The position numbers and the translations under genes are program-made. This document shows positions 1-38,083 of a stretch of 38,083 nt of DNA, piece by piece (the stretch's first letter is position 1; each line of letters begins with the position of its first letter). The stretch is from positions 1-38,083 of IMG/VR virus record IMGVR_UViG_2913192161_000003; one strand, 5' to 3'. A model generated the notes under the pieces. It saw nothing but the letters and a program-made list of their open reading frames with translations, was not told the origin of the DNA and made no database searches. This DNA is from a virus. Lineage: Duplodnaviria > Heunggongvirae > Uroviricota > Caudoviricetes.

Positions 1-237
1 TCAGGCGTGTGCAGCCAATAGTCCTTTATCTTTGCAGAACTGAATAACTTCTACATAGCGGAAGAGAGCGCCACCTTTCGGCGGGTGTATTTCTTCCACT
101 TCCTGCGGGAATGGTGTGCCAGATTCTTCCCACTGTTTGCGCTTTCGATAAAATGTGGTTCTGGAAATACCGCCAAGCATCTCCTGAACGCGCTCACGGT
201 TAACCAGAACCGGCTGAATGCTGATTGTTGTTTGCAT
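1..237 (-). CDS. Excisionase-like / AlpA-type small DNA-binding protein (stop at window edge 1-3)
   Basis: ORF 1..267; start taken at internal ATG (MQTTISI...) at 237 with GGAG about 9 nt upstream; small basic protein at the left end of the early-left operon, where xis sits in lambdoid phages. Family by recall only. Confidence 0.45.
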   Translation of the reverse strand: MQTTISIQPVLVNRERVQEMLGGISRTTFYRKRKQWEESGTPFPQEVEEIHPPKGGALFRYVEVIQFCKDKGLLAAHA

Positions 238-15952: not shown

Positions 15953-16109
15953 GTTAATCGACACTGGCTGTGACTGGGTGAGGCCAATTTATCTCACGGA
16001 AAACGATATCACCGTCATGGACAAGCAGACGAAGCGCGATGTGCTGGTGCATAACCGAGCGTGGAAATCTAATTGTTCGGTTCGAAATTCACAATCTGAT
16101 CGCCTATAG
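15873..16109 (+). CDS. o-spanin (Rz1-like lipoprotein), overlapping the i-spanin in another frame
   Basis: Signal peptide with lipobox-like IVSC (MYSRLLAICLMTTLIVSCAQ); starts inside the i-spanin gene. Confidence 0.5.
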   Translation: MYSRLLAICLMTTLIVSCAQTGPAKVELIDTGCDWVRPIYLTENDITVMDKQTKRDVLVHNRAWKSNCSVRNSQSDRL

Positions 16110-16581
16110 CTAGGGCTAGCTCAAAGAAACGTATGCATTCATCAATTGCTTCTTTATCAAAACCATTAGTATTGACATACGATCCTTCTTTGAAGTCCTG
16201 AGCCAAAGCTTGAAGTATTTGATGGTATTGGACTAATAACTTCGTTCTTTCTACACCCAGTAAACCAACCTTATTCAGGTTAGCATTATAAAACCTGGAG
16301 AAGTTGTCAGGTATCAAGATCGTGTAATAAACCTTTTCTCCAGCTAGGACTTCTGGGTGGTTAGCCATGGAGGTGAATGCCTCTAAATATTTCCTTTCCC
16401 TCATGACTTTTTGCAGTGACTCAACTTCCGCAACAAAGCCAGCAGCAAATGATAGTTTTTCAATGTCGTGATTACCACGACTGATTCGGTAGTTCACCCA
16501 TCCAGAGATACTTGCGCCTATGCATGCACCTATTAGGCCTGAGCATGCTGCGATTAATTGATTAATTGTGGTGATTTCCAT
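16069..16581 (-). CDS. Opposite-strand cargo gene: membrane-anchored protein of unknown function (170 aa)
   Basis: Only minus-strand gene in the plus-strand late block; AT-rich compared with flanks; N-terminal TM helix (INQLIAACSGLIGACIGASISGWV) plus about 140-aa soluble domain; lies where bor lies in lambda but is unrelated to Bor in sequence. Confidence 0.6.
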   Translation of the reverse strand: MEITTINQLIAACSGLIGACIGASISGWVNYRISRGNHDIEKLSFAAGFVAEVESLQKVMRERKYLEAFTSMANHPEVLAGEKVYYTILIPDNFSRFYNANLNKVGLLGVERTKLLVQYHQILQALAQDFKEGSYVNTNGFDKEAIDECIRFFELALAIGDQIVNFEPNN

Positions 16582-35833: not shown

Positions 35834-36700
35834 ATGACCTCATTTATTAAGGTCCCCTTTGCATCATCAGGGGATAAAGCTGCCGTGCCTGATACTGATG
35901 CTGGAGGCGGTGTAAATATGACACAGGGGTATGGTCAGGCTTACTCTTTGGATCCTGCCACTGACCCATCAGCAAAACGAATTGAACGCGATAAGATGAA
36001 CTGGTTATTCAACAGAATAACTCAGGCAATTAATGAAATTCAGTCAGGTGGCGTCGCACCTTTTATTACCAGTGCAGATAATGGTGGATCTGCGTTCTCT
36101 TATGGTAAAGGTGCTTTAGTTTCGTTGAGCGGGGTTGTTTATCAGTCTTTGGTGGCGAGCAATACAAGCACTCCACCAGGCGCGAACTGGTCAGCATTGC
36201 CAGAAAAAATACAACCCCTCGACGCAACCTTAACAGCTCTTGCTGGTCTTGTTGGTGTGGCCAATAAGCTCCCGTACTTCAACGGTGATGACACTGCGGC
36301 ACTGGCTGACCTGACGCAAGTAGGTAGGGACATCATCGGCAAAACTGATATCGCTGCGGTTCTCCAATACCTTGGTTTGAAAACCGCCGCACAACGCGAC
36401 GTTGGGACTGGCACAAATCAAATTCCTGACATGAACGCTTTTAGCTCTGGCTCCGGCTGGCAGAAATTACCAGGAGGCAGGATTCTGCAGTGGCGGGGAA
36501 TAGCCAATGGCCCTGGGGATATTACAAGCCCGCTACCCATTCCATTTCCAAATCGCGCAATAGGATGGGCAATTACGTCCGATTATGTACCAGGGTCAGG
36601 CGGAGTTGGCACAATAGCCGGGACGTGTACTGCAACGAATATCATTTCACGAAATACAAATGTGAGCACTGGTGGTAGCGCTATCGTAGTGGGGGAATAG
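35834..36700 (+). CDS. Tail fibre protein
   Basis: ORF 35753..36700; start at ATG 35834 (MTSFIKVPFASSGDKAAVPDTDAGG), an N-terminus typical of enterobacterial tail fibres; G/S/T-rich C-terminus. Confidence 0.6.
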   Translation: MTSFIKVPFASSGDKAAVPDTDAGGGVNMTQGYGQAYSLDPATDPSAKRIERDKMNWLFNRITQAINEIQSGGVAPFITSADNGGSAFSYGKGALVSLSGVVYQSLVASNTSTPPGANWSALPEKIQPLDATLTALAGLVGVANKLPYFNGDDTAALADLTQVGRDIIGKTDIAAVLQYLGLKTAAQRDVGTGTNQIPDMNAFSSGSGWQKLPGGRILQWRGIANGPGDITSPLPIPFPNRAIGWAITSDYVPGSGGVGTIAGTCTATNIISRNTNVSTGGSAIVVGE

Positions 36701-36702
36701 GT

Positions 36703-37125
36703 ATGAGAACGTATCGCTATGACGCAATAACAAACGCATTTTATCCGTATGAGCTACAGAATGAGTATGAACAAGCAGGGATGTGGCCGGAGTCGGGCCA
36801 TGATGTGAATGAAGATATTTTTCAGCAATTCATCAACCCTCCCGCAGGTAAGGTGCGTGTTGCCGGGAATGACGGAATGCCAGCATGGGGGGATATTCCG
36901 CCACCGGCTCATGATGAACTCGTTGCGGTAGCAGATGTGAAAAAAGCAGCACTATTGGCAGAAGCGTCAGTCGTTATCGCCCCGCTGGCTGATGCGCTGG
37001 CGGGCGGTTATATCGATGACGCTGACGTGCCGCGACTGGCAGCATGGCAGAAATATCGCTATGCACTGACGAAAGTGGATACATCAACTGCGCCGGATAT
37101 CACCTGGCCGCTGCAACCAGTGTAG
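36703..37125 (+). CDS. Tail fibre assembly chaperone (Tfa)
   Basis: 140 aa directly after the fibre gene; Tfa-like N-terminal YDAxTNAFYP and C-terminal W-P-L-Q-P motifs. Confidence 0.65.
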   Translation: MRTYRYDAITNAFYPYELQNEYEQAGMWPESGHDVNEDIFQQFINPPAGKVRVAGNDGMPAWGDIPPPAHDELVAVADVKKAALLAEASVVIAPLADALAGGYIDDADVPRLAAWQKYRYALTKVDTSTAPDITWPLQPV

Positions 37126-37230
37126 AAATCTTTAGTGTAAATCGTCAAAGATGCTGGCGACTTGATGATCGATGACGGTATCAGTGATGATAATTTACAG
37201 GTTGTACGGGAATAATACATGACAATTTGA

Positions 37231-37280
37231 ATGGGGTATAATAGATAAATAATACATCATCATACCCCATTTTCGCTATT
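37231..37280 (+). terminator. Hairpin between the convergent tail and acyltransferase genes
   Basis: 9-bp perfect inverted repeat ATGGGGTAT / ATACCCCAT with 23-nt AT-rich loop followed by TTTTCGCTATT. Confidence 0.4.
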
Positions 37281-37309
37281 ATCTATTGGCAAAAATATTC
37301 TTAATACCT

Positions 37310-38083
37310 TTATATTTGCCTACCTCCTAATAAAATGTGTGAGGTGTATTTGTTGGTTTTCAATAACCTTGCTACAATTATGCAGGTGGTTACAATAAGG
37401 AAAACAAATGAAGGGGTTATGATGAGGTTATATATGAGTGGATTTTCGCATAGGTTATTAATGTTCACGTATGCCTCTATTCTGTAAAAAATAAACGACG
37501 AAATTATATAGATAGGAAATGTGTAAATACCGACAAAGGATGTGGTTCGTATAAATAAATTATTTTTCGTTGATAAAAATGTATATGCATATATAAGCGA
37601 CATGCTTCCGGCGAAGCCAATGAAGTAGCGAAATATAATAATGAATGATTGATGCCAGAAATCAACATTATCATATGTCATTTTAGATATGTAAATATAA
37701 TACTCCCTATTCCATAGGAGAAGCATACCAATCCATGTTAATACGGATAAGACACCAAGTTTGTGCCTATTTTTAGAGGCGAAGTCTAAAATGCGATGGG
37801 CGAATATACCAGCGATAAAATAAGGGGCCATAAATTTAATTTTGTCCATATTCCAATCATCTCCATATGCAAGAGATATACTAAAGAACAGTAAATAAAG
37901 CACCGCAGAATATTGTTTGCTTATTGAGTGACAAATAGTATAAGCAATAGATACTGCAAAGAGTGCGGAAAGGAACCAGAAGGCGTAGATGGCTCCATAT
38001 CTAATATTTATTAAATTTATATCTCTTCCCACAAAAATGGATTCAGCAATGAACCATGCAATGGATGGGATTATTAATTGCAT
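37310..38083 (-). CDS. Acyltransferase family 3 integral membrane protein (O-antigen acetylase-like), N-terminus beyond the window
   Basis: 257 aa visible, very hydrophobic multi-TM and aromatic-rich; strongly AT-rich; located after the tail fibre genes, a common place for lysogenic-conversion genes; the ORF runs to the window edge so the true start is probably outside. Confidence 0.65.
   Translation of the reverse strand: MQLIIPSIAWFIAESIFVGRDINLINIRYGAIYAFWFLSALFAVSIAYTICHSISKQYSAVLYLLFFSISLAYGDDWNMDKIKFMAPYFIAGIFAHRILDFASKNRHKLGVLSVLTWIGMLLLWNREYYIYISKMTYDNVDFWHQSFIIIFRYFIGFAGSMSLIYAYTFLSTKNNLFIRTTSFVGIYTFPIYIISSFIFYRIEAYVNINNLCENPLIYNLIITPSFVFLIVTTCIIVARLLKTNKYTSHILLGGRQI

What the first reader, a model, noticed from the sequence alone, without database searches (positions are those of the whole stretch)
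37310..38083. AT-rich acyltransferase-3 gene after the tail fibre genes (likely serotype-converting cargo)
The rightmost gene is on the opposite strand and is much more AT-rich than the phage backbone. It encodes a highly hydrophobic multi-TM protein typical of acyltransferase family 3 O-antigen or peptidoglycan acetylases. Such genes downstream of tail fibre genes commonly modify the receptor of the phage itself, giving superinfection exclusion and serotype conversion. Only the C-terminal roughly 257 aa are inside the window.
Basis: partly seen in the sequence, partly recalled or inferred. Interest (0 to 1): 0.5.

Follow-up and report, generated by a model that had tools for sequence, protein, structure and literature searches.

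The report
Broken prophage acyltransferase-3 cargo gene
The AT-rich gene at the right end of this prophage is a membrane acyltransferase of the kind phages carry to alter their host's surface sugars, but a one-base deletion just outside the window breaks it, so it is an ordinary and probably dead cargo gene.

Summary
Window 37310-38083 (minus strand) is a 257-codon ORF with 33.2% GC against 51.4% for the window. It is very hydrophobic and matches Pfam Acyl_transf_3 above threshold, over profile positions 112-324 of 326. The source is Escherichia sp. E10V10, a lambdoid prophage with a contractile tail inserted upstream of thrS. The window was cut at a gene-call boundary. Intact alleles are 345 aa and common in E. 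coli P2-like prophages. In E10V10 a 1-nt deletion in a T5 run at codon 74, about 43 nt beyond the window, splits the gene into 83-aa and 257-aa ORFs. The catalytic His35, the K-X10-H motif and the MPFF..SG motif all lie on the detached N-terminal piece. The gene class and position fit a surface-glycan O-acetylase moron. It is convergent with the tail fibre assembly gene next to the prophage end, as oac is in Sf6 and neaT in CFT073, and one homologue lies beside a gtr-like cluster. It travels in a 2.27-kb cassette (fibre tip, chaperone, acyltransferase) shared at 97% identity with an unrelated P2-like prophage. Substrate and seroconversion are untested. This is a new, inactivated member of a known kind, of low interest.

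The parts
37310..38083 (-). 3' three quarters (codons 89-345 plus stop) of a standalone acyltransferase-3 gene. In the source genome it is called as a separate 257-aa ORF (RZN54920.1) because the gene is frameshifted about 43 nt beyond the window end.
   Evidence: ORF list. Pfam PF01757 40.2 bits, profile 112-324/326. Source locus with a split 83-aa + 257-aa gene. DNA alignment with intact alleles shows a 1-nt deletion in a T5 run.
37229..37272 (.). Hairpin in the 184-bp spacer between the convergent tail fibre assembly and acyltransferase genes. It is a likely bidirectional transcription stop.
   Evidence: RNA fold -14.8 kcal/mol (+ strand, followed by UUUU) and -20.0 kcal/mol (- strand); z -4.6 and -4.5; 0 of 200 shuffles fold as well. 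It is conserved in the E. coli copy of the cassette (I1). Sf6 has an annotated terminator at the equivalent place. The simple terminator scan did not call it because its loop is too long.
36703..37125 (+). Tail fibre assembly (chaperone) gene, part of the shared cassette.
   Evidence: Pfam Caudo_TAP E 7e-32. 2 nt differences in 423 from the E. coli P2-like prophage copy.
36374..36700 (+). Receptor-binding tip of the tail fibre gene (gene 35834-36700). This is the left part of the 2.27-kb cassette shared with P2-like prophages.
   Evidence: blastn of source against E. coli 2014C-3075: 2270 nt at 97.0%. The last 107 residues are 100% identical in protein. Pfam Gp53-like_C.
36360..36385 (+). Single gix-like site (TTCTCCAATACCTTGGTTTGAAAACC) at the constant/variable junction of the tail fibre gene. 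Uninterrupted identity with the P2-like copy begins at its centre.
   Evidence: It matches the outer half plus core of Mu gixL in 16 of 19 positions, the only such match in the window, with a chance expectation of 0.01. Sequences read. No inverted partner was found.

Best explanation
The feature is the distal 257 codons of a prophage-borne, standalone acyltransferase-3 (AT3) gene, 345 aa when intact. The gene is a horizontally acquired, AT-rich moron convergent with the tail fibre and chaperone genes at the right end of a lambdoid, contractile-tailed prophage. The prophage is integrated upstream of thrS in Escherichia sp. E10V10. Shown: in this genome a 1-nt deletion at codon 74 shifts the frame, a stop follows 10 codons later, and the window ORF is the remainder read from an internal Met89. 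That product lacks TMH1-2, including the K24-X10-H35 motif and the MPFF..SG motif, so this copy is most likely a recently inactivated pseudogene. Inferred: the intact allele, as in other AT3 proteins, moves an acetyl group from cytoplasmic acetyl-CoA through a 10-helix pore onto an extracytoplasmic glycan. The most probable substrate is the O-antigen repeat unit. Acetylation would change the surface that the co-inherited fibre tip and other phages see, and would change antigenicity. Shown: the gene travels as a 2.27-kb cassette (fibre tip, chaperone, AT3, 268 bp upstream) that has been exchanged between unrelated phage types. Its left breakpoint lies at a gix-like junction site in the fibre gene.
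For: AT3 identity. The window ORF scores 40.2 bits against Pfam PF01757. The intact allele P0001 scores 95.1 bits and covers profile 3-324/326. The 83-aa fragment scores 48.8 bits over profile 3-61. The AF2 model of the intact allele has pLDDT 92 and pTM 0.90 and is all-helical. Its best PDB match is human HGSNAT (Foldseek prob 0.99, TM 0.42).

Frameshift. The source locus has adjacent 83-aa and 257-aa ORFs. Alignment with three intact copies shows TATTTTTCT changed to TATTTTCC, a 1-nt loss. The same 257-aa product is on record from both the NCBI and the Logan assemblies. Most members of the 90% cluster are 345 aa; P0083 alone is on 95 contigs.

Motifs. R16, D21, G34, H35, I56-M65, S68 and G69 are invariant or nearly invariant in 37 homologues, and all lie upstream of the frameshift. 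Their role is taken from PMC9833829.

Recency. pN/pS is 0.27-0.30 against intact alleles, and there is no second lesion.

Moron position and function by context. The Sf6 layout is tailspike, terminator, oac, int. CFT073 neaT is PF01757, 29.8% GC, opposite strand, after the tail fibre assembly gene. Homologues at 39-50% identity sit after Caudo_TAP or tailspike genes, or beside GT2 + 114-aa + 608-aa genes + integrase. Distant homologues lie within GT2 / EpsG / Polysacc_synt / fucose-pyrophosphorylase clusters.

Cassette. 2270 nt at 97% identity with a P2-like prophage, with a gix-like site at the breakpoint.
Against: The frameshift lies in a short homopolymer of an AT-rich gene. Both records probably derive from the same reads, so a sequencing error is not excluded. 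No experiment identifies the substrate. The closest published analogue, NeaT, has no defined substrate and showed aggregation and phagocyte-interaction phenotypes rather than demonstrated O-antigen acetylation. Similarity to Oac is remote (hhalign prob 47%, BLASTP not significant), and the best named model is NolL, far below its cut-off. The RXXR motif of TMH3 is K87..Q90 in this subfamily, and the Arg of R-X10-H is Lys. No convincing promoter was found upstream.
Confidence: 0.72

Rival explanations
1. The gene is intact and functional in the living strain, and the 1-nt deletion is a sequencing or assembly error in a T-run. The window then simply truncates a working 345-aa acetyltransferase.
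For: The lesion is a T5-to-T4 change in a 33% GC gene. The rest of the ORF is open with pN/pS about 0.3. Other odd-length members of the cluster could partly reflect error-prone assemblies.
Against: The same truncated product appears in the NCBI assembly and in an independent Logan assembly. The deletion is accompanied by nearby substitutions, not only a homopolymer length change. At least two other alleles are broken at different sites (P0089 near codon 40; P0090/P0091 near codon 186), which shows that loss of this gene recurs.
Confidence: 0.15
2. The intact enzyme acylates a glycan other than O antigen, such as enterobacterial common antigen, capsule or colanic acid, LPS core, or peptidoglycan through a separate SGNH partner. 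Its benefit would be to the host (surface behaviour, immune evasion) rather than phage exclusion, as proposed for NeaT.
For: Standalone AT3 proteins have many substrates (WecH acts on ECA, NolL on Nod factor). NeaT, in the same moron position, changed aggregation and macrophage association with no defined substrate. Distant homologues sit in capsule/EPS-type clusters.
Against: The gene stays linked to a fibre tip and chaperone across P2-like and lambdoid phages, and in a 49%-identical Citrobacter homologue. A Cronobacter homologue lies beside a gtr-like O-antigen glucosylation cluster. Every phage-borne AT3 with a defined substrate (Oac, OacB-D, OafB) acts on O antigen.
Confidence: 0.3
3. The frameshift is bypassed at low frequency by -1 slippage on the T-run, either ribosomal or transcriptional. 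This would give phase-variable or low-level expression of a full-length enzyme.
For: A -1 shift at TAT-TTT-C restores exactly the wild-type sequence FYF-SLKRKP, as read from the sequence. Expression of some O-antigen modification genes is phase variable.
Against: A run of four T's is far shorter than known slippery tracts. There is no heptameric X XXY YYZ site and no downstream structure. Nothing is conserved at this site, because the frameshift is unique to E10V10.
Confidence: 0.04
4. The 257-aa ORF is a functional truncated membrane protein in its own right, for example a superinfection-exclusion factor independent of acyl transfer.
For: It starts with ATG, is open to the natural stop, and was called as a gene.
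Against: There is no recognisable Shine-Dalgarno sequence before the ATG (AAAAAGAAAATTC-ATG). This form is found in one strain only. It lacks TMH1-2 of a 10-helix fold. No truncated homologue family exists.
Confidence: 0.03

Closest known systems
NeaT of E. coli CFT073 ('nomadically evolved acyltransferase', PMC3573123)
   Same: Both are standalone PF01757 proteins of about 345 aa (NeaT 343 aa). Both are strongly AT-rich (29.8% against 33.2% GC) and on the opposite strand directly after the tail fibre assembly gene. The intact alleles of the present gene occupy the same 'moron position 2' (between G and FI) of P2-like prophages. Relatives of both also occur in unrelated lambdoid prophages and mostly outside Proteobacteria.
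   Different: The sequences are only remotely related (BLASTP E 0.006 over 45 residues), so this is a different AT3 lineage. The copy in the window is frameshifted. NeaT has experimental virulence and aggregation phenotypes, and this gene has none.
Oac of Shigella phage Sf6, the O-antigen acetylase that gives seroconversion and superinfection immunity
   Same: Both are standalone AT3 proteins of about 333-345 aa. The architecture is identical: receptor-binding protein gene, then a terminator hairpin, then a convergent acetylase next to the att end of the prophage. The His of TMH1 and the FF..SGY motif align.
   Different: It is not an orthologue (hhalign prob 47%, E 1.9e-4; BLASTP not significant). 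Oac R73/R76 correspond to K87/Q90 here. The phage is a myovirus with a fibre and chaperone, not a podovirus with an endorhamnosidase tailspike. The substrate is unknown.
NolL (nodulation-factor fucose O-acetyltransferase) and the COG3594-type AT3 branch
   Same: This is the best named profile. The alignment runs end to end (residues 15-341 on model 4-340/347, E 1.3e-18). One homologue is named 'fucose 4-O-acetylase-like' by JGI.
   Different: The score is 67 bits against an equivalog cut-off of 425, so this is a distant paralogue. Its context is a prophage, not a nodulation cluster.
OafA/OafB (GtrC family II) and OatA, the AT3-SGNH fusions
   Same: They share the AT3 membrane domain. OafB is prophage-borne (BTP1) and protects against its own phage.
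   Different: There is no eleventh helix and no periplasmic SGNH domain, because the protein ends at residue 345.
Invertible tail-fibre segments of Mu (G), P1 (C) and e14 (P) with Gin/Cin/Pin invertases
   Same: A gix-like site sits at the constant/variable junction of the fibre gene. A variable tip and chaperone follow. In the P2-like copy, an adjacent serine-recombinase gene is preceded by half of a site.
   Different: There is no inverted partner site and no alternative tip/chaperone set. The recombinase is a pseudogene in the P2-like copy and absent from the window phage. The acyltransferase occupies the place of the alternative set. This is a relic, not a working switch.

Membership tests
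Acyltransferase-3 (Pfam PF01757) | Profile match above the curated gathering score | tested here: met
   Window ORF 40.2 bits (cut-off 31), profile 112-324/326. Intact allele 95.1 bits, profile 3-324/326. The 83-aa fragment scores 48.8 bits.
Acyltransferase-3 (Pfam PF01757) | Ten-transmembrane-helix AT3 fold (PMC9833829) | tested here: met
   Tested for the intact allele only. The AF2 model has pLDDT 92.2 and pTM 0.90, with about 10 long helices and about 10 hydropathy peaks. The best solved match is human HGSNAT 8vlv_A, prob 0.99, TM 0.42. The window product would keep only about TMH3-10.
Acyltransferase-3 (Pfam PF01757) | R-X10-H motif in TMH1, with the catalytic His (PMC9833829) | tested here: not met
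   The window ORF lacks it. In the source it lies on the separate 83-aa ORF, upstream of the frameshift. In intact alleles the His is invariant (H35) and the Arg position is Lys (K24-X10-H35) throughout this subfamily.
Acyltransferase-3 (Pfam PF01757) | RXXR motif on the cytoplasmic face of TMH3 | tested here: not met
   Profile alignment to Sf6 Oac puts Oac R73/R76 opposite K87/Q90. The subfamily consensus is K-x-x-Q-L-x-x-P. The motif is described as highly conserved, not absolutely conserved.
Acyltransferase-3 (Pfam PF01757) | Acyl-CoA-dependent acylation of an extracytoplasmic glycan | not testable with these tools
   This needs biochemistry or NMR/MS of envelope glycans.
Phage serotype-converting O-antigen acetylases (Oac/OacB-D type) | Prophage-borne, outside the late operon, next to the receptor-binding protein gene and the att end | tested here: met
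   Convergent with the tail fibre assembly gene. Host homology (thrS leader) resumes about 0.48 kb beyond the gene's start codon. The Sf6 layout is the same.
Phage serotype-converting O-antigen acetylases (Oac/OacB-D type) | Sequence orthology to Oac | tested here: not met
   BLASTP not significant. hhalign prob 47%. No tblastn hit in 50,697 phage records at E 1e-5. PHROG 3333 'O-acetyltransferase' only at E 1e-4.
Phage serotype-converting O-antigen acetylases (Oac/OacB-D type) | Intact reading frame | tested here: not met
   A 1-nt deletion at codon 74 and a stop at codon 84 in E10V10. The frame is intact in most other carriers.
Phage serotype-converting O-antigen acetylases (Oac/OacB-D type) | O-antigen O-acetylation, seroconversion, and resistance to the carrying phage | not testable with these tools
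   Only indirect context is available. A homologue lies beside a gtr-like cluster, and distant homologues lie in polysaccharide clusters.
NolL equivalog (NCBIfam NF042426) | Score at or above the equivalog cut-off | tested here: not met
   67.4 bits against a cut-off of 425.
AT3-SGNH fusion acetyltransferases (OafA/OafB/OatA) | C-terminal periplasmic SGNH domain after TMH11 | tested here: not met
   The protein ends at residue 345, and the AT3 domain is the only Pfam hit.
Din-invertase invertible tail-fibre segment (Mu G type) | Two inverted recombination sites plus an active serine invertase | tested here: not met
   There is one gix-like site only (36360-36385) and no inverted partner. No recombinase gene lies between the acyltransferase and thrS in the source. 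The recombinase is a pseudogene in the P2-like copy.

The most novel reading that the evidence does not exclude
The fibre tip, chaperone and acyltransferase may form a co-selected functional unit. In it, a receptor-binding tip travels with the enzyme that masks that same receptor in the lysogen. The unit would move between unrelated phage families (P2-like and lambdoid contractile-tailed) by recombination at gix-type junction sites left from former invertible segments. The acyltransferase would have replaced the alternative tip of the switch.
Probability: 0.2. Interest if true: 0.45.

Novelty: new member of a known kind. Interest (0 to 1): 0.2.

Why it matters
If the intact allele acetylates O antigen, it would be an uncharacterised serotype- and phage-susceptibility-modifying gene. 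It circulates in E. coli and cryptic Escherichia clades on at least two phage backbones, which is relevant to O-typing, phage therapy host range and glycoconjugate vaccines. The copy examined here is broken. For this genome the practical message is that it should be annotated as a pseudogene, and a lysogenic-conversion phenotype should not be assumed. The tight linkage of a receptor-binding tip with a putative receptor-modifying enzyme is a tidy, testable example of modular phage evolution, but it is not a new principle.

Tried and rejected
1. Nucleotide and protein searches of 50,697 deposited phage genomes with the gene found nothing. The structural half of the prophage covers at most 5% of any deposited phage, so no named phage could serve as a reference.

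2. Exact-pattern scans of viral contigs and of GTDB representative genomes with a 30-mer from the gene found nothing. The source was found instead by exact protein look-up.

3. The profile scan of GTDB representatives returned only distant (23-48%) Bacteroidota and Firmicutes homologues and no enterobacterial prophage copies. It therefore could not quantify the acyltransferase-chaperone linkage.

4. Foldseek against viral structures (BFVD) gave no meaningful match. The afdb50 library was unavailable. A sequence search of the PDB gave nothing relevant.

5. A strict palindromic hix/gix consensus recalled from memory did not match anywhere. I replaced it with the real Mu gixL sequence from the annotated record.

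6. I tried to map attL/attR from related prophages that share the same int-xis module. This gave two short repeats in swapped order and no clean core. I therefore state only that E. coli homology ends about 0.48 kb beyond the gene's start.

7. The promoter scan upstream of the gene was no better than shuffles.

9. I considered peptidoglycan O-acetylation of the OatA type and rejected it as the primary reading, because there is no SGNH domain and no partner gene nearby.

Full report
OBSERVATION. The minus strand of window 37310-38083 carries an ORF of 257 codons plus a stop codon. It is convergent with the plus-strand late genes. Those are a tail fibre gene (35834-36700; Gp53-like_C) and a tail fibre assembly gene (36703-37125; Caudo_TAP, E 7e-32). 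The ORF's GC content is 33.2%, against 51.4% for the whole window. This is lower than every other 774-nt window (mean 51.9%, minimum 41.9%, z = -4.9). The product is very hydrophobic (52% hydrophobic residues, GRAVY +0.70). It matches Pfam Acyl_transf_3 (PF01757) above the gathering score (40.2 bits against 31, E 2.9e-10), but only over profile positions 112-324 of 326. So the description is correct: an AT-rich, opposite-strand AT3 gene whose N-terminal third is not in the window.

WHERE THE WINDOW COMES FROM. The window starts on the stop codon of a minus-strand xis-like gene and ends exactly on the ATG of the 257-codon ORF, so it was cut at gene-call boundaries. An exact-protein look-up found the source: Escherichia sp. 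E10V10, assembly GCA_004211985.1, contig RHJO01000001.1, where the ORF is RZN54920.1, a 'hypothetical protein'. The thrS flank is 92.6% identical to E. coli, which fits a non-coli Escherichia lineage. The window is a lambdoid prophage. It carries xis, Dam, YqaJ/RecT, CI, YdaT, O/P-like replication genes, Q, holin, a GH108 endolysin, terminase and portal. Its contractile tail and baseplate match Pfam families named after Pseudomonas phage E217. No deposited phage covers more than 5% of its structural half. Beyond the acyltransferase gene lie about 0.7 kb of intergenic DNA and then thrS-infC-rpmI-rplT-pheST-ihfA. Homology to all 5,426 E. coli genomes stops about 0.48 kb beyond the gene's start codon. 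The gene is therefore the last gene of the prophage, next to the host junction.

THE GENE IS BROKEN JUST OUTSIDE THE WINDOW. In the source, an 83-aa ORF (RZN54921.1; PF01757 48.8 bits, profile 3-61) lies immediately upstream of the 257-aa ORF. The nearest relative in complete E. coli genomes is 97.8% identical in DNA (NZ_CP027447.1, strain 2014C-3075) and is one uninterrupted 345-codon gene annotated 'acyltransferase family protein'. Aligning the E10V10 sequence with three intact copies shows one missing base in a T5 run at codon 74 (TATTTTTCT becomes TATTTTCC). This gives FYF-PSRGNHHQL-stop, and the stop lies 11 nt before the ATG that ends the window. The 257-aa ORF is simply the old frame read from internal Met89. 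The 90% cluster has 29 member sequences, and most of those listed are 345 aa (one on 95 contigs, another on 16). The 257-aa form occurs only in E10V10, where both the NCBI assembly and an independent Logan assembly carry it. Other members are broken elsewhere (P0089 near codon 40; P0090 + P0091 near codon 186), so loss recurs. Against intact alleles, pN/pS is 0.27-0.30 and there is no second lesion, so the inactivation is recent. A sequencing error in the T-run cannot be excluded without reads.

WHAT THE BREAK REMOVES. In an alignment of 37 homologues, the invariant or nearly invariant positions are R16, D21, G34, H35, I56-Y57-S58-F59-H60-M61-P62, F64, M65, S68 and G69 in the N-terminal 74 residues. 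Those in the part held by the window are P94, W124, F125, P175, G180, R240, G244, G247, G273, Y280 and G341. The literature defines AT3 domains by 10 transmembrane helices, an R-X10-H motif in TMH1 with an essential His, and an RXXR motif on TMH3 (PMC9833829). Here the first motif is K24-X10-H35, and it lies on the detached 83-aa piece. The positions that align with Oac R73/R76 are K87/Q90, straddling the window end. An AlphaFold model of the intact allele is confident (pLDDT 92, pTM 0.90) and all-helical. Its best solved match is human HGSNAT (Foldseek prob 0.99, TM 0.42). That is expected, because AT3 and HGSNAT have been reported to share a fold (abstract of PMC12423673). The 257-aa product would lack TMH1-2 and the catalytic His, so it should be inactive. 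That is what the source shows.

WHAT THE INTACT GENE MOST LIKELY DOES (INFERENCE). It is a standalone AT3 with no SGNH domain. The best named profile is NolL, the fucose O-acetyltransferase, aligned end to end but at 67 bits against a cut-off of 425. PHROG 3333 'O-acetyltransferase' matches weakly. Similarity to Sf6 Oac is remote. Genomic context is the main evidence.

- In Sf6 the order is tailspike gene, terminator, convergent oac, then int. Here a strong hairpin (37229-37272; z about -4.5 on both strands) separates the convergent chaperone and acyltransferase genes.
- Homologues at 39-50% identity lie after a Gp53-like fibre and Caudo_TAP in a related Citrobacter prophage. Others lie beside a TAP remnant and an integrase in Kosakonia, and between int and a P22-type tailspike in E. 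coli. In Cronobacter one lies next to a GT2 (GtrB-like) gene, a 114-aa gene, a 608-aa gene and an integrase.
- Of five distant homologues inspected in Bacteroidota and Firmicutes, three sit among GT2, EpsG, Polysacc_synt and fucose-pyrophosphorylase genes.

Phage-borne AT3 proteins with known substrates acetylate O antigen and block their own phage (review PMC9558356). The best-supported mechanism for the intact allele is therefore acetyl transfer from cytoplasmic acetyl-CoA through the AT3 pore onto a surface polysaccharide, most probably the O unit. Substrate, seroconversion and exclusion are all untested.

THE CLOSEST PUBLISHED CASE. NeaT of E. coli CFT073 (PMC3573123) is a PF01757 gene of 29.8% GC. 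It sits on the opposite strand, in 'moron position 2' of a P2-like prophage, between the tail fibre assembly gene and FI. Its relatives occur in unrelated lambdoid phages and mostly outside Proteobacteria. I located it at NC_004431.1 933882-934913. The intact alleles of the present gene sit in the same position of P2-like prophages. The two proteins are only remotely similar (BLASTP E 0.006). They are therefore different AT3 lineages that landed in the same slot. NeaT's substrate is unknown, and its phenotypes were aggregation, reduced macrophage association and fitness in bacteraemia. This keeps the rival 'not O antigen, host-benefit' alive.

HOW THE GENE GOT HERE. blastn of the source against the E. 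coli P2-like prophage gives one 2,270-nt segment at 97.0% identity. In window coordinates it runs from 36347 to 531 nt beyond the window end. It holds the last 107 or so codons of the tail fibre gene (100% identical protein), the chaperone (2 nt differences in 423), the acyltransferase (3.2% divergent) and 268 bp upstream of it. The rest of the two phages is unrelated. On the left, uninterrupted identity begins at the centre of TTCTCCAATACCTTGGTTTGAAAACC (36360-36385). This sequence encodes the LQYLGL junction of the fibre. It matches the outer half plus core of Mu gixL in 16 of 19 positions, is the only such match in the window, and has a chance expectation of 0.01. On the right, in the P2-like copy, identity ends inside TTCACCAGTCGAACG|TTTTTGAAAAT. 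The outer half of that sequence resembles the gin-proximal half of gixR. A serine-recombinase pseudogene follows 51 bp later. There is no inverted partner site and no alternative tip set. The acyltransferase therefore sits where the alternative fibre tip of a former Mu-G-type invertible segment would be, and the cassette has been swapped between phage families at the conserved junction. A 49%-identical homologue in a Citrobacter prophage shows the same trio. There the fibre's constant part is 82% identical up to LQYLGL, and the tip (35%), chaperone (36%) and acyltransferase all diverge to similar degrees. So the linkage is old. Whether it is functional (tip plus receptor-masking enzyme) is speculation.

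VERDICT. The family, composition, orientation and cargo position are right, and a surface-glycan O-acetylase is the most likely function of intact alleles. This copy, however, is a frameshifted and probably dead remnant, and nothing shows that it modifies the phage's own receptor. It is a new (and here inactivated) member of a well-known kind of prophage moron. The nearest precedents are NeaT for position and evolutionary pattern, and Oac for presumed function. Interest is low (0.2). The only mildly novel angle is the tip-chaperone-acyltransferase cassette bounded by a gix-like relic.

Noticed in passing
window 36347-38083 and 531 nt beyond (L002 9470-11737; L001 7648-9917): A 2.27-kb cassette (fibre tip, chaperone, acyltransferase, 268 bp upstream) is 97% identical between this lambdoid prophage and an unrelated P2-like prophage of E. 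coli 2014C-3075. Within it the acyltransferase is 3.2% divergent, while the tip and chaperone are 0.5-0.9% divergent. This suggests a mosaic history inside the cassette.
   Followed up: partly
window 36360-36385; L001 7661-7686 and 9899-9925: A single gix-like site sits at the constant/variable junction of the tail fibre gene, and half of a site lies next to a hin/gin-like recombinase pseudogene in the P2-like copy. This looks like the relic of an invertible tail-fibre segment in which the acyltransferase occupies the place of the alternative tip.
   Followed up: yes
window 16069-16581 (minus strand): A 170-aa ORF lies on the opposite strand between the lysis genes and the small terminase, in a GC-poor patch (41.6% in 16001-16500). 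It has no Pfam match and may be a second moron.
   Followed up: no
window 1-237 and DNA to its left; L016-L018 6001-7403: The 78-aa xis-like protein is identical in very many assemblies (listed in 1,977 blocks). In three of them it overlaps the 3' end of a 402-aa integrase gene by 43 nt, next to yniD. The integrase of this prophage therefore probably lies just outside the window's left end, and thrS/yniD is a commonly used insertion site.
   Followed up: partly
L002 9063-9085 and 9138-9162; L016 7428-7452 and 7584-7606: Two short sequences upstream of thrS recur beside the integrase in related prophages, but in swapped order. They are ACACGAAAGATCACATACAAAGA and AAATTGGTACACAATCTGGTACACA, the second containing a TGGTACAC direct repeat. 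They may be att or arm-type sites, or a duplicated thrS leader. No clean att core could be defined.
   Followed up: partly
proteins P0087, P0089, P0090, P0091 (90% cluster of the acyltransferase): Other strains carry the same gene broken at different places: out-of-frame N-termini near codon 40 and near codon 186, and a 183 + 146 aa split. The gene is therefore lost repeatedly, or these AT-rich homopolymers are often mis-sequenced.
   Followed up: partly
L010-L013 4916-7870: In many E. coli genomes (P0010 is listed in 844 blocks), a P22-like prophage carries a three-gene cargo block between int and the tailspike gene. It consists of a 354-aa AT3, a 334-aa protein with a weak HL_N-beta hit, and a 289-aa AT3 that is 39% identical to the present one.
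   Followed up: no
L005 88-4812 / L006 57-4781 (Cronobacter sakazakii): A 49%-identical acyltransferase lies beside a GT2 (GtrB-like) gene, a 114-aa small membrane protein gene, a 608-aa gene with no Pfam match and an integrase fragment. This looks like a gtr-type O-antigen glucosylation island with an added acetylase.
   Followed up: no
L001 1988-4088: The P2-like prophage of E. coli 2014C-3075 carries an opposite-strand pair, DUF4435 protein plus AAA ATPase, between the virion morphogenesis gene and baseplate gene V. This may be a defence-type moron.
   Followed up: no
L019-L098 (GTDB representative genomes): The nearest relatives outside Enterobacteriaceae (23-48% identity) are almost all from gut Bacteroidales, Lachnospiraceae and other low-GC anaerobes. 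This fits the gene's 33% GC and the 'extra-phyletic origin' described for neaT.
   Followed up: partly
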